From assembly GCF_025526975.1 (NCBI RefSeq), contig NW_026515688.1:310001-374000 (forward strand): a stretch of 64,000 nt of DNA, written 5' to 3'. Below the pieces are notes generated by a model. It did not search any database and had not been told where the DNA came from. It was given only the letters and a program-made list of their open reading frames with translations. The DNA comes from Fimicolochytrium jonesii (taxonomy: Eukaryota). Position numbers and translations under genes: made by a program. Numbering within the stretch: position 1 is the first letter of the stretch; every line of letters begins with the position of its first letter. Positions 46,433 to 60,268 of this stretch are shown here, one piece after another.

Positions 46433-49400
46433 TCACTTGGCGAATGCAACCAGGATGTGTGAGAATGCCCAATCCCCTTGGATGATCCCGCTGCTAGTGT
46501 CCATACTGTTCGATTTCGCCGAATTGTCCCTGTTCAGGCTCCAGAACCCAAGGAAAGCGAGCCAGTCGCCTCCGGCGCCAGCCCCAGCACCAATGTCCTT
46601 CCCGCTGCCGCCCGAAGCAAAGTTTATCAGCTCCTGGGCGTTGTTCAGAGTGAAAATCTCGTCGGCGAGATCGTTCACTCCAATCATTGGCGTCAAGCCA
46701 ATCTTGGGGACTGAGCCGGCAGGAAACTCGCTCGTAAGGAGTTTGTAGGTCGCCTGGGCCGCTGAGATTGCGTGTTGGGCCATTACGGTTTTGCAGGCGT
46801 TGTTCTTGCAGTGGGCCGGGTCCCAGTCCATGACCATGAGGTTGACAACTAGAGGTTGATTGAGGTCAAGATTTTGAGAAAACGACTCAAGCTGTAGGCA
46901 GGGAAAATTATGACAAGGCTTACCATCAATTTTCAACCCGGCTTTATGAGCACTGGTCAACACATATTTCCCTTCAGTAGTGAGACCAGTCGGCTCGACA
47001 GGGAGAGTGTAGCTGATAACCAATGTTGGGTTCTTGGCCTTGATCTTCACAAGAGCTTTGTTTCTGGTATCCACGCTGGTCTTGTTCGCCAATGCCTTGC
47101 CCTCGATGTCGAAATCAGCCCAAGTTATTTTCAGAGCGTCGATCACACTCTGATACGTAGTGACGAGGGCGGCTTGACTAGCAGCCTTCAAAGCGAGCTC
47201 CTTGCCAGCAGCGCCTCCAAAGGATACAATGACATCTCCATCATGATCGTTGCGGAGCGTTTGAATGTCTTTCTTCAAGAAGCTGCTACTGACTTTGTAG
47301 TATCCGCCCCAAGACGGGTCACCCTGCTTGTCGGCGATGATAAAGCCCAGAGCAAAGTGACGCAATCCAGAGCTTTTCGCAGCGCCGACGATGTCGAACG
47401 TTGGCCAGGCCGTGACATCAACGTATGGCGCCAATGTGCGAGTAGACCAAGTCAGAGAGTCACCAAGGGTATTCCTTTTGGTCGAAAGGCTTCGTTTGGC
47501 ATGCTCGGCTGTTATGATCAGCGATGGGTCTGGAACCCCCGCGCTGTGGCCCGGTGAACCACGAGCAGGGGGAAGAGGTGCGTTGAGATACGTCCAGCGC
47601 TTAAGCGGCTCAGGAAGCTCTTGGAGGAGGCGAGCTGCATTGTCAGAACCGGTGGAGGCGGCTAGCTTCACGGCATCTTTGGCGCTTTCTGCAGCCCCCT
47701 TCAGAGCATCCTTCGCGTCGGCAGCAGCATCCTTGACGGCGCCGGTCGCAGTCTCGGGAACGTTCTTCACAGCGTCCTTGACGTCAGCTATCACCCCACC
47801 GACTGTACCAACAATCTGGGCCACCGAAGGAAGGTGGATGCCACCGACGCTCCCGTCCTCGTCCACCTCTTCGTCATCCGTCTCCTCCGTCTCCTCATCA
47901 TCTGCTTCCGGTTCATCACGAGTGGCTTTCGTGACCTTCGTGACCTTCTTGGGTTTCTTAGTTTTCTTCGCCTTGGGGGCTTTCGGGGTCTTAGTGGGCG
48001 CATCATCAGCGCTATTCTCAGTGCCGCCTTCGGTTGAGGCTGGCACACTGGTGATGACACCACTTTGGAACCCCTTAAACGTGTTGACAAAGTCCAGATC
48101 AGCCTGCGAGACTTGGCTCGACGCGTAGAGCGCTCCTTTCTTGGAGGTGTCCCTGTTCACGCTCCACATGGCAATGCGTCCTACCCATGGAGTGGAGCTA
48201 GCCCAGGTAGAGAGTTGCGCGGCGTCGGCTAGTCTGAAGACTTCACCCGCTACATCGTTCTGTCCGATCATAGGGGTGATGCCGATCTGTGTGGCTGTGA
48301 AGCCGGCTGCTTGAACTTGCTTGTATGTTGCCTGCGCGGCGCTGATAGCGTATCCGCCCATGCCGGTGGCACCATTGGGCGCTGCACCACCACCATAGTC
48401 CATAGCCATGATATTGACAACTGAATTGGGGTCATTGAACGATCGTAAGCGTTGGGACGCCTGGGGCGCTTTATTCAGCATAATGAAACTTACCATCAAT
48501 CTTGGTCCCCATTTTAGCCGCAGACGCAAAGAGTGCAATCGAATATGCATCAACCCCGTCGGGCATAGCCGGAAGCGTGTAGGATATCTTCACGCCCGGA
48601 TTAGCCTTCTGCAATCCAGCGATGGCTTGGTTACGCCGATCATTCGCAGCGGTGTTGGGCAGTGTTGCGCCTTCAATGTCAAAGTCCAGCCAGGACACTC
48701 CGTAAGTGTCAATGACGCTTTGGTACTTGGCTTGGAGAGCTTTGGGATCAGTGACCTGCAGCGCCAGCTCCGTTCCTGTAAAGTACAGTGTTGAAATGTC
48801 AGTTACTCAGTTCACGAACAGCATCCGAAGCGAATACTAGTATAGCAAAACTGCGGAGGTGATACGAACCAGTAGCGCCACCCAACGAGATGATGACATC
48901 GCCACCGAGTGCTCGAAGCTTGTCAATGATATCCTTGTAAAATCCTGTGGCGATCTTAGTGACTCCTCCCCAAGCCGGATCTCCAGCGGGATCAGCGAGA
49001 ATAAACGCCAAAGTGTAAAATTTGTGGCCCGTCGTCTGGGCAACGGTCGACACATCCAGGGTCGGCCAGAGAAGCACATCGACGTATGGTGCGAAGTATC
49101 TTCCTGTCGATCCGGTGGCTGCTTCCGGGACCGGAACGGGGGCTTCCGCAGCTGGCTGCTGCTCGCCATACACTTCCTTCTGCGTAGAAGTCTTGACGGT
49201 CGTGACGCCGTTGAGGACGGCGCTGAACTCGTAGTCCTTTTGAACGATCTGTGTAGATGCGTACAGCGGTCCGGTCTTGGCTTTATCGCGATTGACAGAC
49301 CATGCGCCAAGCGATGCAATCCAGTCGGTGCTCTTGGCCCAGGTGACCAGTTCCACGGCATCTGCCACGCGGAAAATTTCGCCGGGGACGTCGTTTTGAC

Positions 49401-50846
49401 CGAGCATGGGCGTCACACCGATTTTGGTCGTGAGAAGGCCGGCCAAATGGGCTTGAGTGAGAGTGGCCTTGGCAGCGCTGATCGCGTAGCCGCCCATACC
49501 GGTTGCGCCGTTGGGCGCGGCGCCGGCGCCGTAATCCATGGCCATGATGTTGATGACTGTAGACGGATTGTCAAGCAATCAGAATGTGCTTCAGTGGCAG
49601 GATACACTTGCATTGGCCTTACCATCAACAGCCAATCCAGCCTTTGCAGCCGATTGCAACAAGGCAACACCCTCTGCCGTCAGTCCGTTCGGTAAGGCAG
49701 GCAATGTATAACCGATCTTCAACTTCGGGTTGTTTTTCTTCAGCGTCGCAAGGACCCTGTTTCGACGGTCGACGGCGGCCTTGTCCACAAGACCGGCTCC
49801 CTCGATGTCGAAATCCGCCCAAGTGAGCTGGTAGGCAGTAACAATCGATTGATAAGTGGCAAGAAGGGCTTTCTCATCGGTGATGACTTGAGCCAACTCT
49901 TGGCCTGGAAGTGGAAGCCAACTCATTTTGTGAGTGTCTGCAACCCACAAAAGAGTCATACGCATCGAAAAGCGATATCAGCAGATGAATCTTACCATTG
50001 GCGCCGCCGAAAGAAATAATTACATCTCCACCCGCAGCCCTCAATTTTTGTACAATGTCCTTGTAAAATCCGCTGGATACAGGCGTAATTCCACCCCAAG
50101 CTGGCGTATGGGCAGCATCAGCGGCCGCTGTTACAAACGCGAGAGTGAAATACTTGACACCAATTTGAGTGGCGACAGCACTGACGTCCAAAGTGGGCCA
50201 CAGCATTACATCAACGTAAGGAGCGTAAACCTTGGATGGCCATGTCCCAGTGGAGGCACTGGCGCTAGTCGATGGAGGCGTCGTACCGGCGACTACACCG
50301 CCCGAGACCGCTGCTCCAGCGCCTACGGAAACGGCTATAAACAGATGACGATAGCATGAATTTCCAATGTTCGTTGAAAAGCAGTAGGCGCAAGTATGCC
50401 CACCTGTAGGTTTGGCGGCGGCTGCAGGGGCAGTTCCACCGCTGACAGGCCCAACGAGCTTCCAGATAGCTGCACAGCATCCAGGGTACCAATCCGTCTG
50501 GCTGACATGGGTCGTGAGGACTTGGTAACGGTTGGCTTGATAATCGACAATCTGGCCCTTGGTATACTGCGCTCCGATCGCCCAATTGTAATCTGTACAT
50601 ATTGCTAAGTGAGTAAGGAGTGCTCTGATCCAAATCCAAGCATGCCTGCTAATCACACGCCGCACTAGATGACTTACCACCGTTGGCTGCCTTACTGGGA
50701 GCAGCAGGTGCAGCAATAACAAGGCCAACGCAGAGAGAGAGAAATGTATAAAGGCAGATACCTACGCCCAGGCCCATAAGGAAACAGGAACCGATGCTCC
50801 GTGACTCCAAGAAGCCCTTCTTGGGAGTAACCTTTTTACGAGGCAT
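46433..50846 (-). CDS. Multidomain chitinase: N-terminal anchor, CBM5/12, and three tandem bacterial-type GH18 domains
   Basis: CBM motif WAIGAQYTKGQIVDYQANRYQVLTTHVSQTDWYP. Three repeats each carry APYVDV..WPT, TLAF/ALGF, GGDVIISxGG, DFDIEG, YTLP, NIMAMDY/NLMVMDW, TPMxGxND and WSxNRD. Confidence 0.92.
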
Positions 50847-51449
50847 CGTCGGGAGTAGACTATCGGTGACTGCTCACAAACAACTGCTCTCGATAAATGA
50901 TGCTAAAAATCTCGATAGATGTGATGCTAAAACTCTCACGGGTTTGTGGATTTGATGTAAATCGTGCTCTCATGAAGGGTTCTGAGAGGGTTGCTGTTCA
51001 TCAACAACAGAATCTTGGCGACGCCACCGGGGATGTGAGGTAACGTTCTTGCCAGTTTTTCGTGTATGCAAAACAGGTTAAGCGTAAGCTAAATCTGCCG
51101 CCCACTGTCTTCAGCCCAACGGCGGCGTGAAGCCCACACCACTTCTGACGGCGGTTGTTTTCGGGGACGGTTGTCTGGGATCAAGCAGCTAGGAAAACTC
51201 CGCCGGTGTCATCACTAACGCGTGATGATTGGCTGAGGGAGGCAGCGCGCCTTCACGCGTACTCGGCCTTTTCTTCGAAAGCGACGAAATATCATTGGAA
51301 CTTAAACCGCCACACCCTAGCGAACTGTACAAGTATCGGTCTATACATCACGCATTAGGGGTTCCACAGGGCATAGTCCAAACGGTGTGTCCTATTTAAT
51401 CTATCTGTAGACAACGTTTGCGGAATTCTAGTACACCCGCAATGTCAGA

Positions 51450-53121
51450 TCAAACCTCAATCTCACCAAGAGGCTTGTCAAGCTCGGACGCGACGATGGC
51501 CCAGAAAGCAAAGGCCAAGGCGTTCTGGTATAGCGCCCTCGGGTTGACGACCTCCATTTGATCGGCACGGCTATGGTGAAAGGCAAAATAGGTGTCACTC
51601 GTAATCGTCGTCTCGAAACCAGCAACGGGTACGCCAACGGCTCCCAAGAGTTCCGTGTCTGATGGGGGAGGTGAGGTGACATGAGTCAGTCACGTGGTTA
51701 CTTCAGTTCGTCTTGGGCATTGCAAAAGAGCCTTACCAGATCCAGAGTAACCTTCACCGCCTCCTTCGACCGTTCCCCAGTGGTTCGCCTGGATCAAAGC
51801 ATCCGCTTGGGCAGCCGCCTGCAAAACCTTCAACGCCTTCTCTCCAGCGGGGAAGTACGATTCAACAGTAAGCCCGGCCGGGGTCGCGACGCCAAAATCA
51901 CTTTCAATGGCAAGGATGTGGCGCTCGCCGTTGCGCTTCTTGTTTTCCGCTTGGACGTATTCCGCGTATTTGGCGGCACCGTGGGAGCCGCTCTCCTCGT
52001 TGGCCCACCCGGTGAGCCTGATGGTGCGCTTGAGCTTGATCCCGCTCTTCTTGATGAGGCGGATCGCCTCCCAGGCAGCAAAAACCGGGCCACCGTCGTC
52101 ACCTGCACCCACGCCAACATCCCAGCTGTCGAAGTGTCCGCCGATCAAAACGAGATCCTTGGGATGGGTGGTGCCGGGCAGGTCAGCAAAGATATTGTAG
52201 GTGGTCGTGTTGCGGTAGTCGGACTGCAGGTTCAACTGGACGACTGGAGCCGGGTACTTTTTGGGATTGGTTTGCGATCTTTTGTAAAGCCGTTGAAGGA
52301 GGTTGGCGTCCTCAGGAGAGATTGCCGCCGCAGGAATCCTAATCGAATGGATCAAACGCAAGGAAGAGTCATTGAAGAGTTCTCGTTCTCCTAACCCCAG
52401 ATGCATACATACCCAGCGCGCCTCGAGAATCCAGTGTGGACGGTTCGCTGACTGACGCTCGTGGCCGACCTGATGATCACAGCCTTGGCTCCGAACGCCT
52501 CCACAGTTTGTGCCGCGGTACTTCTGATACGAGAAGCGGCGCCGTACCCCGTCCAGTTGTAGTTGACGAGAACAATTTTGCCACGGACATCCGTAGTATT
52601 GAGCTGAGCCAAGGACGTGATCGGTATCACCGCTCCGGTGATGCCCTTCTTGCTGGTTGGGAAGGAGCTGCCGAGAGCCAACACGGGGATATCGAAATTG
52701 GGACGCTCCTTGTTGCTAATGAGGGTCAACGACTCGTCCTTCCTGGTCCAAGTAGGCACGTTCGGCACGGGTTGTTGAAAGATCTTGAGGTCATCGGCTT
52801 GCAGTTGGTCACGAAGCCATTTCAACGACTGTTTCCGTCACTGAGAAGGTCAGTGCAACCGAACGTGTTATTTCAATGAGTTGGTTTCACACATGCCTTC
52901 AAGTACCCGGGGGTCCCAGTCTTCCTCGGACCGTAGGTGTCCGTCATCTCAGCCAGACGGTCCCATGCGTCGCTACCTGTATCGACCTTCTGGACTGCAG
53001 CCCAAGCCTTCTGGACATTCTCCCACCCAGGAAGGTTGATGGTGGAGTTGCCCGCCGCTACAACGGGGTCAACCCAATGGCTCGCGCACGCGGCGACGAA
53101 GAGAACGGATTTCAAGAGCAT
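51450..53121 (-). CDS. Secreted M28 metallopeptidase with PA domain (carboxypeptidase Q-like)
   Basis: Signal peptide, then WDRLAEMTDTYGPR, the PA domain DVRGKIVL, LIGGHFDSWDVGVGAGDDGG, GWANEESG, AIESDFG and FHHSRAD. Confidence 0.92.
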
Positions 53122-53874
53122 GTCGGCGGAAGCTTTCAGGTGTTTTGTGGGTTTCAGTGTGGACGTCCCAGGGGCGTGCCCTCCTTTCTCGGGCTTGCCT
53201 TTATACCCCTGCGTTCCCAACTTGCCAGTGTGCACCTGTTGTCACCAGCGGGACAGCCTGTGCGTCGTGGGCGTTGTGCCATCGGAGTGCAATCCGCGTC
53301 TTGTGCTGGAGCAGACGCGTTTGATCAAAGACAAAAAGCGTTGATCCCCACGCGTTTTCAGATTGCGTGCTTGCACCTTGCAACCTTCCCACGCCCGACG
53401 ACGTTGCTGCACATCCAGATCCCATGTCGAGACCAAGGAGTCATTTCCAGACCGATGCCAGCTGGCCCATGTTTCTGCAAAGGCGGCAGGACTCTCTATA
53501 ACGCTAGGACATACTGTAGAAATACCAGCAGTCGTGTGAATGCTGGCTCGGATTGAACAATCGTTCCTTAGAGACGCTATACATATATGTACGGGTTCTG
53601 AACCGCCCTAGGCACCTCCGCATCAGCCCGCATCCGCCTCGCTATCCATCAAGACCTTCTGCCATCTATGCTTCTTTTTTTTCCTGCTGGGCGCATGTTG
53701 GGGTGTCGGAGACTGATGAAATGCCAGTGGAGAACACGCGCCTTATGAGAACGCGTTGACCAGCAGGACCCTGTCCAAATTTCAGCGGCCCCCATCCCCA
53801 AGTCCGTCTTCCAACTAGCGACAAGTCTGTTCCAACCGAAGATCTCAGATCTTGTTTGCTGTTCTCGACGACGG

Positions 53875-56800
53875 ATGATATACCGCTCATCCGCCTCAAG
53901 AGCTCTCTTTGTTCGCAAAGCTGCTATCTCTCATCCTTCCCTGTCTCTCCAAAGCGCACGCACCTTGCATCTGCACGGAAGTAAAGTTGTCGCAAACCAA
54001 GTTCTCCCAGCCCCGACATATTCCACGAAACCCACAACAACCATGGGAGTTCGCAACAACGTACGGCCGTTCCCAGTCCAAGGTCTCCTCCCTAAAGACG
54101 AAACGCAAGCTGCGGCATTCATTAGAAACCACCCTGAGTATGACGGACGTGGAACCGTAATTGCTATTTTGGATACCGGCGTGGACCCAGGCTCTCCGGG
54201 AATGCAATTGACATCCGACGGGCGCCCCAAAGTCATAGACATCATCGACTGCACGGGTGCGGGTGATGTACCATGCTCAACCGTTTTAGAGGCGGCGTCA
54301 ACCGACATCGATGGCGTGAGTGTGAAGACCCTGAAGGCCCTGTCAGGTCGAACACTCAAAATCGGTGATTGGAAAAACCCAACAGGCAAATATCGCCTAG
54401 GCATAAAACGCTCTTCAGATCTATTTCCGAAGGATCTCTGGGGCCGTCTGAACAAGGAGAGGAAGAAGAAGTTCGACCTCCGTCATCACGAGGTCGCGAC
54501 CAAGGTCCATAGAGAGATGGAAGAGTTGAGCACTGCTACCAATGTGGAGGCCGAGGAGAAGGATAAGAAAAAAGCCGAGCTGAAGACCAGACTGGAAGTT
54601 TTGACCGAACTGCACAAGCGCTATGAAGACCCGGGATGGATCGTCGACTGCGTGGTCTTTCATGATGGAGAGAAGTGGCGGGCTGCACTCGATATTGGAG
54701 AAACCGGGGATCTCAGACAAGCGACGTTGTTGACAAATTACGCCGACGAAAGGCAATTCGCTCGATGGACTGAAGACTCGATGCTGAACTACTCTGTCAA
54801 TATTTACGATGAAGGACACACCCTGTCCGTCGTGACGCTGTCTGGGACTCACGGCAATCATGTGGCAGCGATCACAGCTGCAAATTATCCCGACGATCCA
54901 GAAATCAACGGCGTAGCGCCTGGGGCGCAGATAATATCGTTAAAAATTGGCGACCAGCGCTTAGGAAGCATGGAAACCGGGACAGCTCTCGTTAGAGCCG
55001 CCATTGAATTGGCTCGCTTGAAGCCCGATTTGGCAAACATCTCATACGGAGAAGCATCGTCTGTCGCAAACACGGGGCGATTCATTGAGCTACTTCAGGA
55101 CGATGTGATCAACAAAGCGGGATGCATCGTCGTGGCCGCGTCCGGGAACGCCGGACCCGCCCTGTCTACGTCCGGGACGCCCGGTTCGACTACTTCCGGC
55201 ATTGTCTGCGCTGGAGCATACGTCACGAAGGGTATGATGGAGGCGGGCTATGCTTTGCTGGACACAGTGGATGAAAGACCATTCACGTGGTCCTCCCGAG
55301 CCCCAACCACGGATGGGGCTGTTGGGACGACCATCTACAGCCCAGGGGCGGCTATCACCTCGGTCCCTCAATACACTACCGCTCGATCGCAACTGATGAA
55401 CGGTTCTTCGATGGCCAGTCCCAATTGCTGCGGCTGTCTTGCCTTGTTGGTTGGAGGCTTGAAAGCGGAAGGAATTCCATACACGCCGTACCGGATAACA
55501 GCGGCGATTCAGAACGGCGGGAAGGACATCAACGATCCCTCAGGCGTCAAATTCTTTCAAGTTGAGGACGCTTGGGAACACCTGACAACCACCGCACCGC
55601 AATCTGCCGCTTTCGACGTTCACTACGACATTTCGGTCAACGGGGGCCGCGGGATTTATCTCCGCGACGCGCACCAAACCACCGAGATCGGAGTTTTTCA
55701 AACGGATGTGAAAGTACGGTTTTTCGACGAGGAAAAGGAAGGGATCAACCTCCGGAAGGGCGACTTTGAAGTTAGGCTCGCGCTCGTTCCGTCGAAGAAG
55801 TGGATAAATGCTCCCGAGCACGTTCTTATGGCCAGCTCTGGCAGGTCATTCGCTGTGGAGGTTGATCCCACCGGGCTTGATGCCGGACATCACTTTGGTG
55901 AGGTCGTCGCGTACGACGTCAAGAACCCCAAAGCCGGACCACTCTTCAGAGTTCCCATCACCGTTTGCAAGCCGATCCAACCCAATCTGCGCTCCGGCGA
56001 TTCGATAGCTTACTACAAATGGGACAAACTGCAATTCTCACCTGGTGAAATCAAGCGACATTTCATCAGCATACCCCCCGGCGCAAATTTCGCTGAGCTT
56101 GTAGTCCGCAGCGTCAATCGTGACTCTTCAGCAAGATTCATTGCCCACCTGCTGCAACTCCAGCCACAGACCCGCTATACCAAGCACGAGCACGAGTTCG
56201 CTTTCATGCTGGGACGGGGCACAGACACCACTGAAGACTTGACTGAGCATCGCAAGATCTTCCCGATTTTGCCCAACGCCACTCTGGAAGTGTGCCTGGC
56301 ACAATTCTGGTCCTCTTTGAATACGTCCGAAGTGGAGGTTGAGATCAAATTGCATGGAATCATCACGACGATTTCCTCTCACAATCAGGGCGCGAATTCC
56401 GTTACGAGTGGGTCCGGTGGAGATTTGACGGTCGTCAATGCGGCTGGAGGCTTTGCGCGGCTGGACTTCTGGACGGGGTTGAGGAAGGAAGAAGTGCATG
56501 CTGATGTTTCTTTAGGTAACCACCCCTTGTCAATTTTGAAACCTTTGATTTGCCTAACTTGGTTCATGCAGATACTTTGCGCCGATCACTTCGCCCCACT
56601 GAATACACCATCACCCCGCTCAAGTCTAGGGATGTGCTGCCTAATACGAGACAGCTTCATCAGCTGGTGCTGACATACAGCCTGAAAGTGACCGACGCTG
56701 GCACGGGGCTGAACATCACCCCTAGAGCCCCACGCATGAACGAGATGTTATATGATGCGTGGTTTGAAAGCTTTGTATTGATCGGTATGTGATCGCCAAA

Positions 56801-58103
56801 TTTGGGCATGCTAAGAGCTGATGGGCGCATTTACTAAAATGGAAATCTTTCTGTAGTGTACGACGCGAACAAGAAAGAACTGTCGTACCAAGATATTTAC
56901 GCGAAACCTGTGAAAGTCACCGACGGCACATACACAATTCGTGTCCAACTCATCTCTTCCTCATTGGAAGAACTGGAGAAGCTGAACGCCATGTGCCTAG
57001 TGGTCGACCAAGCTCTCAGCAAGAACATCTCTCTCACTTCCTACTCGACGCTGAAAGCTACCGTCAAGGAGGACAAATCGGGAGCATTCAAGAAGAAAAC
57101 AATGCATAAAGGCGACAGAGCCACTGCCTGGATTTCTTTGGAGGGTATCACGCCTCCAAAGGACGCTGCGAAGGGTGACCTGCTGATCGGCAAACTGAAC
57201 GTGACCGGCGGTGGAAGTAAGATCGATGGGAACGGTCTGTACGCTCTTGGTGTCATCGTGCCGCCACCTGCTGAGAAGAACAAAAACGGGGACAAACCCA
57301 AGAAGGACGAGAGCGAGCTAGATGAGACCAAATTGATCCAAGAGGCCGTTCGCGATGTCGAGATTTCTTTGATCAAGAAACTTAAAACGGATGCGGAACG
57401 AGCGAAATTGGTCGCGAAGCTGGAGACCGAATGGGGTGCGCATTTGCCCTTCCTCGTCGCGCATCTCGAGCAAGTGGGTGAAGTCGGGGAGAAGGAGGAG
57501 AGGGAAACGCAGCAAAAGGAACCCAAGGGGCACGTCGGCGACGAGAAGATCAAAACCGTTGAAGCCGCGGCCGACAAGATTCTCAAGCAAGTTGATGAGA
57601 AGGAGGTCCGCGAGTTCTTCGGCGCCCGCCGTGACGCCTCGTCCGAGACACTCAGTGGCACCGAGTCTGACAAGACCAAGCTCGCTGAGAAGCAAAAGGA
57701 AATGGACAAGCAGAAGGAGGCGCTTGCCCTCAGCTACGGGTGGAAAGCATGGGTAGCGAAGCAACGCGTGTTGACCGAGCCTAGCAATCAATCCGTCGAC
57801 GCATTGGCTGGGGCACTCGATTTGTTCGCGACATGGATTCCAGAGAAGGAAAAGCCAACGGACAACTCCCTGTACCTGCTGTCGTGGTGTGTGTTTGCGA
57901 AGCAGAAAGGGAGATTGGGGGAGCTGGTGAAAGTCACGGACAAATGGCTCAAGGATCCCACAAAGGTGTTGGACCCGAGGTTCTCCGCGGTCGTGGCAGA
58001 GTACAACGCGGCGTTGAAGGAGCTGGGGTGGGCGTGTTGGATTGAGTATGAGGAGAAGCACGCCATCATCAGGAAGCCGCCGGGAGGGTTCTCTGCGTTC
58101 TAG
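53875..58103 (+). CDS. TPP2: Tripeptidyl-peptidase II (subtilisin S8 family)
   Basis: Motifs FPVQGLLPK, YDGRGTVIAILDTGVDPG, HGNHVA, KIGDQRLGSMETG, NISYGE, TWSSRAPT, LMNGSSMASP and EVCLAQFWSSL. Two introns (~56516-56570, ~56785-56856). Confidence 0.96.
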
Positions 58104-58130
58104 CAACGAAAGCAGCGCGCTAAATTGTGA
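58101..58130 (+). other. Putative stop-codon readthrough element encoding a cryptic PTS1 (X-QRKQRAKL*)
   Basis: TAG CAA CGA AAG CAG CGC GCT AAA TTG TGA lies immediately after the TPP2 ORF, in frame. Confidence 0.7.
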
Positions 58131-58631
58131 AGGCGAAGGAAGGCAGATGAAAGGCGGTAGAAAGGAAGCGTAGGATAGCTGTGAGTGAGGATGGAGTTTA
58201 TATGTATCTTGGGACCTCGCATGTACTGTACGTACATAAATCGTCAATAAGACCTTTAAGAGTGCGCAGAGATTGGTAAAGCGTCGTCATGGTTGTAAAT
58301 GTTGTACGGCCCGACAAATGGTTTTGGTCAAAAATGAAAGTTCGTGGGAATAGGGTGGTGAGCTCAGAATTCTGAACTGGGCTACATAGTTTGCCAAGTG
58401 GCTCAAGTCTGTTCTCATAAGAGGATTAGGTGCGCAACGGTAGACTCGGCGGGAACATGCAGCGGCGCCACCCGACAGCGAATCATAGATAACGCGGATT
58501 CACTTAAGCTGCCAGATGACAGCGCGGCGCTAATCTATTCTTTACGGGGTCCAAATTGCTACCCTACAAGTTCGCAGGGATGAAGAACACCCCACGGTTC
58601 GAGTAGTATTCCTACGGGTACGGGATGGTTT

Positions 58632-60268
58632 CTAAAACTCCTTCTTGATGAGTTTCGCAATGGTTTGCAATTGGATGTTGGATGTTCCCTCGTAAATAGC
58701 ACCAATCTTGGCGTCCCTGTAGAACTTCTCGACTCCGAAGTCCCGCGTGAACCCAACTCCACCTGGTTGAGACATATGTCAGTTATATCCTGAGAAGTAA
58801 ACGTGAGGGAGACTGCCTTAGATCCCGATACTCACCGACCCACTCAATGGCCCTGCTGGACGCCTTCTCAGCGATTTGCGATGCATACAGCTTAGCCATA
58901 GCGGCTTGCTTGACGAAGTTGCGGCCCTCTTCCTTCATGCGGGCAGCGTTGTATGTGAGGAGACGGGCAGCCTCCAGTTCAGTTGCGACTTGGGCAAGTT
59001 GGTGCTCGACGCCCTGGGATGATGAAAGCTCTCGTTCAGTATCTGTTTCTTGCGAAGCATAAAACTTTGCAATCCACAGCTCACCTGGAAGTCGATAACA
59101 GCAGTGCCGAACTGCTTCCTTTGTTGCATGTATGGCACAGCAATGTCAAGGGCACCTTGTGCGATACCAATCATCTGGGCGGCGATTCCGATACGTCCTT
59201 CGTTCAAGATCTCAATAGCGTACTTGTATCCCTTTCCAACCTCACCGACAACGTTCGCGGCGGGAACCTCGACATCCTCGAATGACAGTTCACATGTGGA
59301 AGAGCTCTTGATTCCGAGCTTCTTTTCTTTCTTAGCAATCTTTACGCCCATCTCCTTCTCGACCAAGAAGCAGGTGATTCCCTTGTAGCCTTTGCTTGGG
59401 TCGACATTTGCGAACACAAGGAAAATCCCAGCCTCCCATGAGTTGGTGATCCACATCTTTCCTCCGTTGATAACGTATTTGTCCCCCTTCTTGGTAGCAG
59501 TGGTGCCAAGAGCGAATGCATCAGACCCTGCTCCGGCCTCAGACAATGCGAAGCAACCAATGGTGTCCTCAGCAAGACGGGGCAGGTACTTTTCCTTCAA
59601 CTCCTTGGTGCCGTGTTGACGGACGAGGGTGTTTACAAGGGTGTTGTGGACGTCGCAGGCGACGGAGACAGACGCGTCAATTCGAGCAAGTTCCTCGACG
59701 GCGATGATAGCTGCGGTAAAAGACATTTCTGCTCCTCCAAGCGCTTCCGGGGTCTCAATTCCCATGAACTGCGGAAAAAATGCCGTGTCAGCACCATGCC
59801 CCGGCGGTGAACCCACGTTTGAGTCGCACGTACCCCGTTGGCAAACATGCCATCGAAAACGGACCTTTGTATTTGCTCCGCCTCGTCCATCTCGTAGGCT
59901 AAAGGTTTGACTGTGTCATGGGCGAACTTCCGCACTGTACTCGTGAACCACACCCCGTCAGTATCACAATCCTTCATCTTCGCTCAACCTCTCCCCATGC
60001 CATACCAGTCTCCCTCAGCATCTCCTCCTCATCTGTGAAGTTGTACAAGGAGCCAAGACTTCCATTGTGCTGTCGGGCAACCGCAGACTGCGAAAAAAAC
60101 CTGCAGATCGCGGGGAGAAGCTGAATATGAGAATATGTTTTTCCACGTTGTGTTTTTTCCCACGACCTATGAGAAGGACTTCACATACCTGTGTTGTGCA
60201 AGAGGTCTTGAGCGGCCGATGGAGCGCACAGCGAGACGAGCGGTGCTGGAACGAAGGAGGGCGACCAT
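58632..60268 (-). CDS. ACADSB: Mitochondrial short/branched-chain acyl-CoA dehydrogenase
   Basis: Presequence [21 protein letters not shown], then [49 protein letters not shown] and [26 protein letters not shown]. Confidence 0.92.

What the first reader, a model, noticed from the sequence alone, without database searches (positions are those of the whole stretch)
58095..58130. Cryptic peroxisomal targeting signal behind a leaky stop codon of tripeptidyl-peptidase II
Seen in sequence: the TPP2 stop TAG (58101-58103) is followed in frame by CAA CGA AAG CAG CGC GCT AAA TTG TGA, which encodes QRKQRAKL*. Established knowledge: -AKL preceded by basic residues is a canonical PTS1. The 3' context CAA CGA fits the yeast/TMV-type readthrough-promoting consensus CA(A/G)N(U/C/G)A. 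Fungi are known to make cryptic PTS1 isoforms of glycolytic and other enzymes by readthrough. Inference: a fraction of TPP II, normally described as a giant cytosolic exopeptidase acting downstream of the proteasome, is routed to peroxisomes. I know of no report of this for TPP II. None of the other 3' ends I translated here gives such an extension.
Basis: partly seen in the sequence, partly recalled or inferred. Interest (0 to 1): 0.88.

Follow-up and report, generated by a model that had tools for sequence, protein, structure and literature searches.

The report
Hidden peroxisome tag behind TPP2 stop
In a chytrid fungus, the gene for the giant peptidase TPP II ends in a likely leaky stop codon followed by eight codons that end in the classic peroxisome address tag, and it has an upstream start codon giving a likely mitochondrial leader, so one gene probably supplies three compartments, but whether related fungi keep the hidden tag could not be checked.

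Summary
Observation confirmed: TAG 58101-3, the conserved TPP II stop, is followed in frame by QRKQRAKL and TGA. The gene is TPP2 of the chytrid Fimicolochytrium jonesii. Of 4121 stop triplets in the window, only this one combines CAR with a canonical PTS1; joint chance is about 0.5-2e-5 per stop. The context fits the recalled yeast consensus but not strict TMV CARYYA. The decisive test, conservation in chytrid DNA, failed for lack of data: of 13 metagenome loci none was fungal, and the 2 informative ones lack a tag. Two indirect lines help. TPP II ends natively in PTS1-like tails in one chytrid clade (12 of 15) and an unnamed clade (8 of 11), although a basic penultimate residue also occurs in bacterial-type homologues. 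Also, an upstream in-frame ATG gives a basic, acid-free leader, mirrored in other chytrids, smuts and fission yeasts. Best reading (0.58): mainly cytosolic TPP II with minor readthrough-peroxisomal and mitochondrial forms, like insulin-degrading enzyme. The mechanism is known; the cargo appears new.

The parts
53875..54042 (+). Upstream in-frame ATG (C at -3, weak context) and 56-codon leader: 7 K/R, no D/E, 15 S/T, no PTS2; likely mitochondrial presequence
   Evidence: the public gene model P0001 (1366 aa) starts here
54043..56515 (+). TPP2 exon 1 from the conserved core ATG (A at -3, G at +4); S8 catalytic domain, Ig-like and GBD-like domains
56516..56571 (+). Intron 1 (GT..AG, 56 nt)
   Evidence: the spliced length agrees with P0001
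56572..56784 (+). TPP2 exon 2 (TPPII domain core)
56785..56856 (+). Intron 2 (GT..AG, 72 nt)
56857..58103 (+). TPP2 exon 3, helical C-terminal domain, ending in the conserved tail and TAG
58101..58109 (+). Stop TAG and 3' context CAA CGA, a likely leaky context
58104..58130 (+). In-frame extension QRKQRAKL and second stop TGA; AKL at 58119-58127 is a canonical PTS1
58201..58251 (+). TATGTA, TACATA and AATAAG elements, a likely polyadenylation signal downstream of the extension
   Evidence: motif match only; no RNA data

Best explanation
The TPP2 stop TAG is followed in frame by QRKQRAKL and TGA, and ribosomes likely read through it at a low rate, giving a TPP II nine residues longer that would be bound by Pex5 and likely imported into peroxisomes (microbodies). 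A near-cognate tRNA would decode the UAG in its CAA CGA context, probably in well under to a few percent of events (inferred). The added residues would carry AKL clear of the conserved, predicted-ordered terminal Phe. Extended subunits would be imported as monomers or dimers, possibly with an untagged partner, before the multi-megadalton complex forms (inferred). The same gene likely also makes a mitochondrial form from the weak upstream ATG 53875, while most ribosomes would start at the strong ATG 54043 and make the cytosolic enzyme. The likely job in the organelles is trimming of peptides left by matrix proteases. Shown: sequence, gene structure, rarity, conserved stop, leaders and tails in homologues. 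Inferred: readthrough, import, mitochondrial targeting, function.
For: Only 1 of 4121 stop triplets in the window combines CAR with a canonical PTS1; joint null 0.5-2e-5 per stop. AKL fits the PTS1 consensus (S/A/C)(K/R/H)(L/M) (PMC3798809, passages) and three of the five preceding residues are basic. UAG CAR YYA works in yeast without a downstream structure (PMC13517186, passages). Readthrough PTS1s are widespread and patchy in fungi (PMC9549241, passages). Native PTS1-like ends [SAC][KRH][FLM] occur in 28 of 397 intact TPP II ends, including 12 of 15 in a chytrid clade holding Globomyces, Terramyces and Boothiomyces, where -3 varies among A/C/S and -2 among R/K/H, and 8 of 11 in an unnamed clade, two ending ARL and SRL; 0 of 64 bacterial-type homologues do. 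F is an accepted last residue among yeast PTS1s (PMC4526572, section 8). Basic, acid-poor leaders before a retained internal Met: 17 of the 22 long leaders among 187 non-bacterial rows, including three Schizosaccharomyces and several smuts, and four Spizellomycetales genera; window null 25 of 2260 ATGs. Likely poly(A) elements lie 70-120 nt past the second stop.
Against: No chytrid or other fungal DNA was obtained; of 13 metagenome loci only 2 show the sequence past the stop and neither has a leaky context or PTS1. No stored homologue carries an extension past the conserved Phe that ends in a canonical PTS1, whereas known readthrough cases have some orthologues with the PTS1 inside the reading frame. 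The +8 base departs from CARYYA, and +8 is reported as a key position in yeast (PMC9272376, passages). In Ustilago the efficient motif is UGA CU, and UAG was weaker in that motif (PMC4207609). About 1% of yeast genes have PTS1-like motifs in the first 30 nt of the 3' UTR in some frame, few conserved. A basic penultimate residue occurs at the same rate in bacterial-type homologues (7 of 64) as in the rest (22 of 187), so native PTS1-like ends may be structural drift; the clades are few independent events (12 changes), and the Spizellomycetales sequences themselves do not end so. Active TPP II is a complex above 5 MDa activated by assembly (PMC2933905, passages). No targeting predictor was available for either signal.
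Confidence: 0.58

Rival explanations
1. The extension is a chance 3' UTR sequence under no selection; TPP II here is cytosolic (and perhaps mitochondrial), and any trace that leaks into peroxisomes is irrelevant.
For: With about 10,000 genes (assumed; no genome held) the nulls give 0.05-0.17 context-plus-PTS1 coincidences per genome, 0.4 for CAR alone and 2-3 for any stop followed by C. A large scan that looks for this pattern collects such cases (several comparable notes). The start of the UTR is purine-rich, which favours K and R. No conservation was shown.
Against: Three independent features coincide (context, canonical tripeptide, basic upstream residues; about 2e-6 in the Markov null), and they fall on an enzyme with separate signs of organelle targeting.
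Confidence: 0.35
2. The PTS1 is functional but reached by alternative splicing: the TAG doubles as a 3' splice acceptor and an upstream donor joins the coding frame to CAA CGA.
For: The stop lies at the end of a pyrimidine run ending in TAG, and acceptors at 58103, 58112 and 58115 all keep the AKL frame. Fungi make PTS1 isoforms of GAPDH and PGK by splicing.
Against: None of the 9 in-phase GT donors between 57700 and 58090 matches a strong donor pattern, no branch-point motif was found in 58020-58100, the introns would be 111-363 nt against 56 and 72 nt for the real ones, and they would delete conserved helices. The pyrimidine run is explained by the conserved F-x-x-F codons.
Confidence: 0.05

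Closest known systems
Readthrough-derived PTS1 isoforms of fungal and animal enzymes (Ustilago Pgk1, Tpi1, Art1, Rpe1; human LDHB and MDH1; PMC4207609, PMC4359377, PMC3798809)
   Same: Conserved stop of a cytosolic enzyme, short in-frame extension, canonical PTS1, second stop.
   Different: The context is UAG CAA CGA instead of UGA CU(A); the cargo is a giant self-assembling peptidase, not a redox or glycolytic enzyme; the host is a chytrid; conservation and import are not shown.
Insulin-degrading enzyme (IDE; PMC8472535, passages)
   Same: A mainly cytosolic oligopeptidase with a mitochondrial form from a weak upstream start codon and a C-terminal AKL.
   Different: Unrelated fold (zinc metallopeptidase against subtilase); IDE's AKL is constitutive and its peroxisomal role is disputed in that review, whereas here AKL lies behind the stop.
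Tripeptidyl-peptidase II (S8 family; PDB 3LXU)
   Same: All four TPP II Pfam domains and E 2.7e-160 to 3LXU; conserved terminal tail.
   Different: Described as cytosolic, with debated nuclear relocation; no peroxisomal form found in my searches.
TMV-type UAG CAR YYA readthrough signal
   Same: UAG followed by CAA, with A at +9.
   Different: G at +8 instead of a pyrimidine.

Membership tests
Tripeptidyl-peptidase II | S8 domain plus TPPII, Ig-like and GBD-like domains | tested here: met
   PF00082, PF21223, PF21316 and PF12580 above cut-off; match to 3LXU
Tripeptidyl-peptidase II | Asp-His-Ser catalytic motifs intact | tested here: met
   The three motifs align with 3LXU
Readthrough-derived cryptic PTS1 | First stop is the true, conserved end of the protein | tested here: met
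Readthrough-derived cryptic PTS1 | In-frame extension ends in a consensus PTS1 before the next stop | tested here: met
   no PTS1 predictor was available to score the last 12 residues
Readthrough-derived cryptic PTS1 | Stop context known to be leaky | tested here: inconclusive
   Fits the recalled yeast consensus CA(A/G)N(U/C/G)A; fails UGA CU and strict CARYYA
Readthrough-derived cryptic PTS1 | Extension conserved in related species | tested here: inconclusive
   No fungal locus among 13; viral and prokaryotic scans gave none
Readthrough-derived cryptic PTS1 | Measured readthrough and Pex5-dependent import | not testable with these tools
   Needs reporter and localisation experiments
Alternatively spliced PTS1 isoform | Usable in-phase donor, branch point and acceptor | tested here: not met
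Dual-start mitochondrial/cytosolic isoforms | In-frame upstream ATG in weak context giving a basic, acid-free leader before a conserved internal Met | tested here: met
Dual-start mitochondrial/cytosolic isoforms | Leader shown to direct mitochondrial import | not testable with these tools
   No predictor or experiment available

The most novel reading that the evidence does not exclude
TPP II is an overlooked organellar peptidase across fungi: one gene serves cytosol, mitochondria (upstream start, kept from chytrids to fission yeasts and smuts) and peroxisomes, the last gained repeatedly, by stop-codon readthrough in Fimicolochytrium and by remodelling the enzyme's own last three residues into a weak PTS1 in other chytrids and an unnamed eukaryote clade. 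A 5 MDa cytosolic protease would then have a working small or re-assembled form inside organelles.
Probability: 0.3. Interest if true: 0.75.

Novelty: new member of a known kind. Interest (0 to 1): 0.5.

Why it matters
It would add a protease, and a giant self-assembling one, to the enzymes sent to peroxisomes by readthrough, extend the mechanism to chytrids and to a UAG CAA context, and point to an exopeptidase step in peroxisomal and mitochondrial peptide turnover. It also poses a testable question: whether TPP II, activated by assembly, can be imported as a dimer and work or re-assemble in an organelle. If conservation fails it is a single-species coincidence of little weight, though the mitochondrial-type leader would still stand.

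Tried and rejected
No own genome is held. No sequencing run was listed for 56000-58700, which is no evidence on expression or poly(A) site. Four viral-contig scans found no relative; the prokaryotic-genome scan gave one weak bacterial locus, not examined further. The metagenome scan gave 13 loci, none fungal by best hit: 9 do not reach the C-terminus, L013 ends just before the stop, L001 ends one base after it, L002 (TAA TCA, 22-residue extension) and L003 (TAG TTT, 7 residues) have no PTS1. Cluster members of 10 proteins showed no isoform with a C-terminal tag; a Powellomyces model fused to the next gene splices out before the stop and tells nothing about the UTR. Alternative splicing was tested and rejected. 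No stable stem-loop follows the stop (-9.1 kcal/mol for 77 nt; no shuffle control). No PTS2 in the leaders of six proteins checked. AlphaFold: the isolated domain with the stop read as Gln gives the tail pLDDT 70-77; the full-length homologue P0104 gives 88 for its last ten residues; different proteins, so only a hint that the native tail is ordered. Literature: TPP II with peroxisome and readthrough, 0 papers; tripeptidyl with PTS1 and peroxisome, 4 papers, of which the one on TPP II concerns pexophagy after knockout, not targeting; no listed chytrid paper held readthrough or PTS1; tpp2 with pombe and mitochondria, 0 papers; supplements of PMC4207609 and PMC9133605 and the text of PMC9244630 had no hit for tripeptidyl. 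Freitag 2012 and Namy 2001 were not read; their text or supplements could list chytrid cases or the exact readthrough rate of this context.

Full report
Observation. The window reads, at 58071-58139, RKPPGGFSAF*QRKQRAKL*: TAG at 58101-58103, then CAA CGA AAG CAG CGC GCT AAA TTG and TGA at 58128-58130. Exon 1 is 100% identical to a protein of Fimicolochytrium jonesii, a chytrid whose nearest hits are Spizellomyces and Powellomyces. The gene has two GT-AG introns and 1310 codons from ATG 54043, all four TPP II Pfam domains and a strong match to Drosophila TPP II, 3LXU. Homologues from chytrids, other fungi, animals and bacterial-type sequences end at the same tail closing in Phe (397 of 437 rows had an intact end), so TAG is the real stop and the eight codons are an extension.

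Chance. Among all 4121 stop triplets of the window, 11 run in frame to [SA][KR]L*, 153 are followed by CAR and 26 by CA[AG]N[UCG]A; only this one has context and tripeptide together. Markov models of the local flank give 1.4-1.7e-3 for a canonical PTS1, 4e-5 with CAR, 5-7e-6 with the six-base context and about 2e-6 with basic residues as well (few events in 600,000 draws, so rough). For an assumed 10,000 genes that is 0.05-0.17 coincidences per genome on the strict definition, 0.4 for CAR and 2-3 for any stop followed by C. The pattern is thus unusual but within reach of a scan of many genomes. In yeasts about 1% of genes have a PTS1-like motif near the stop in some frame and few are conserved (PMC4526572, section 8 read). 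Eleven other long-ORF ends and the neighbouring acyl-CoA dehydrogenase end gave no tag.

Context. UAG CAR YYA works in yeast without a downstream structure (PMC13517186, passages), and +4, +5, +6, +8 and +9 are the key positions (PMC9272376, passages). Here +8 is G, so the match is to the looser yeast consensus only, which I recall and could not read. The demonstrated fungal cases use UGA CU, and UAG was weaker in that motif (PMC4207609, first fifth of the text read; PMC4359377, passages). Readthrough is therefore plausible but probably low. Reviews note that low rates suffice for the small peroxisomal compartment and that such signals are patchily distributed (PMC9549241, passages).

Conservation in DNA. 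This was the decisive test and it could not be done. No genome or run is held. The metagenome scan with a chytrid-based pattern returned 13 loci, none fungal by best hit; 2 show the sequence past the stop and neither has a tag. Viral and prokaryotic collections gave nothing useful.

Protein ends elsewhere. No stored homologue has an extension past the conserved Phe that ends in a canonical PTS1. However, 28 of 397 intact ends are themselves PTS1-like, [SAC][KRH][FLM]. They cluster: 12 of 15 in a chytrid clade that holds Globomyces, Terramyces and Boothiomyces (support 0.73; 14 of 24 in the enclosing clade, support 0.98), with -3 varying among A, C, S and -2 among R, K, H; and 8 of 11 in an unnamed clade, two with ARL and SRL. 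Cys at -3 occurs 5 times, always with a basic -2; a small -3 goes with a basic -2 in 28 of 34 rows against 159 of 299 otherwise (Fisher p 0.001, but rows are related, there are only 12 changes on the tree, and up to 16 bacterial-type rows remain in this count). Against this, a basic -2 is as common in bacterial-type homologues (7 of 64) as elsewhere (22 of 187), though none of the 64 is PTS1-like; that tree left out rows failing a tail motif, among them several animals. The native tail is predicted to be ordered in a full-length homologue (pLDDT 88), which fits a structural role and makes a readthrough spacer a sensible way to expose a signal. This line is suggestive only.

The other end of the gene. 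An in-frame ATG at 53875, in weak context, lies 56 codons before the strong core ATG. The leader has 7 K/R, no acidic residue and an R-x-L-H motif (its reading as a processing site is recalled). Comparable, unalignable leaders stand in models from Spizellomyces punctatus, Powellomyces and Thoreauomyces; models from Geranomyces and Gaertneriomyces, and sister models of Spizellomyces and Powellomyces, start at the core Met. Of 187 non-bacterial full-length rows, 22 have 45 or more residues before the core motif and 17 of these are basic and acid-poor, including all three Schizosaccharomyces rows and four named smuts, each with an internal Met kept. Only 25 of 2260 ATGs in the window have such an upstream leader. 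This is the better-supported sign that fungal TPP II is shared with organelles; no predictor was run.

How it likely works. Most ribosomes would skip ATG 53875, start at 54043 and stop at TAG, giving the cytosolic enzyme that assembles into a complex above 5 MDa (PMC2933905, passages). A minority starting upstream would make a mitochondrial precursor. A minority reading through would add X-QRKQRAKL, bound by Pex5; peroxisomes import folded and oligomeric cargo, and untagged partners can ride along (PMC3798809, passages), so a dimer is a plausible cargo, the full complex is not. Insulin-degrading enzyme has the same layout of weak upstream start and terminal AKL, with its peroxisomal role disputed (PMC8472535, passages). 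All three routing steps are inferred.

Rivals. Chance (0.35) stands because conservation is unshown. Splicing to the TAG as acceptor (0.05) fails for want of a donor or branch point.

Novelty. The mechanism is known. My searches found no report of peroxisomal or readthrough TPP II nor of mitochondrial fission-yeast Tpp2; subscription papers and unseen supplements, Freitag 2012 among them, are outside these searches. Earlier scan notes hold nothing on TPP II but several other hidden-PTS1 candidates, so the class is common. Verdict: real observation, probable new cargo of a known mechanism, unverified by conservation; interest 0.5.

Noticed in passing
window 53875-54042 (+): Upstream in-frame ATG giving a 56-residue basic, acid-free leader; similar leaders in other Spizellomycetales, smuts and three Schizosaccharomyces suggest a widespread mitochondrial form of fungal TPP II that my one search did not find in print.
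   Followed up: partly
P0014, P0016, P0017, P0019, P0024 and unnamed relatives; P0221, P0336 and relatives: Two clades in which TPP II ends natively in PTS1-like tripeptides (ARF, AHF, CHF, CRF, SHF; ARL, SRL, SRF, SKF).
   Followed up: partly
P0335, P0350, P0388, P0392, P0394 and their clade: Full-length TPP II-like proteins in Planctomycetes and Verrucomicrobia, many with signal-peptide-like N-termini, keep the same C-terminal tail.
   Followed up: no
window 46433-50761 (-): A multi-exon gene with several tandem copies of a domain that by recalled motifs looks like a bacterial-type GH18 chitinase; the 718-residue piece had no Pfam hit at 1e-3.
   Followed up: no
window about 51400-53142 (-): An M28 peptidase gene with a signal-peptide-like start lies head to head with TPP2, about 730 nt from the upstream ATG.
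   Followed up: no
window about 58630-60000 (-): An acyl-CoA dehydrogenase gene lies tail to tail with TPP2; it has no PTS1, native or hidden.
   Followed up: yes
P0264: A Powellomyces gene model fuses TPP2 to the downstream myosin-like P-loop protein; probably an annotation artefact, since another assembly has them apart.
   Followed up: partly
window 27786 (+) and 21588 (-): Two TGA CTC stops followed in frame by short PARL/AAKL-type ends; neither was shown to be a gene end.
   Followed up: no
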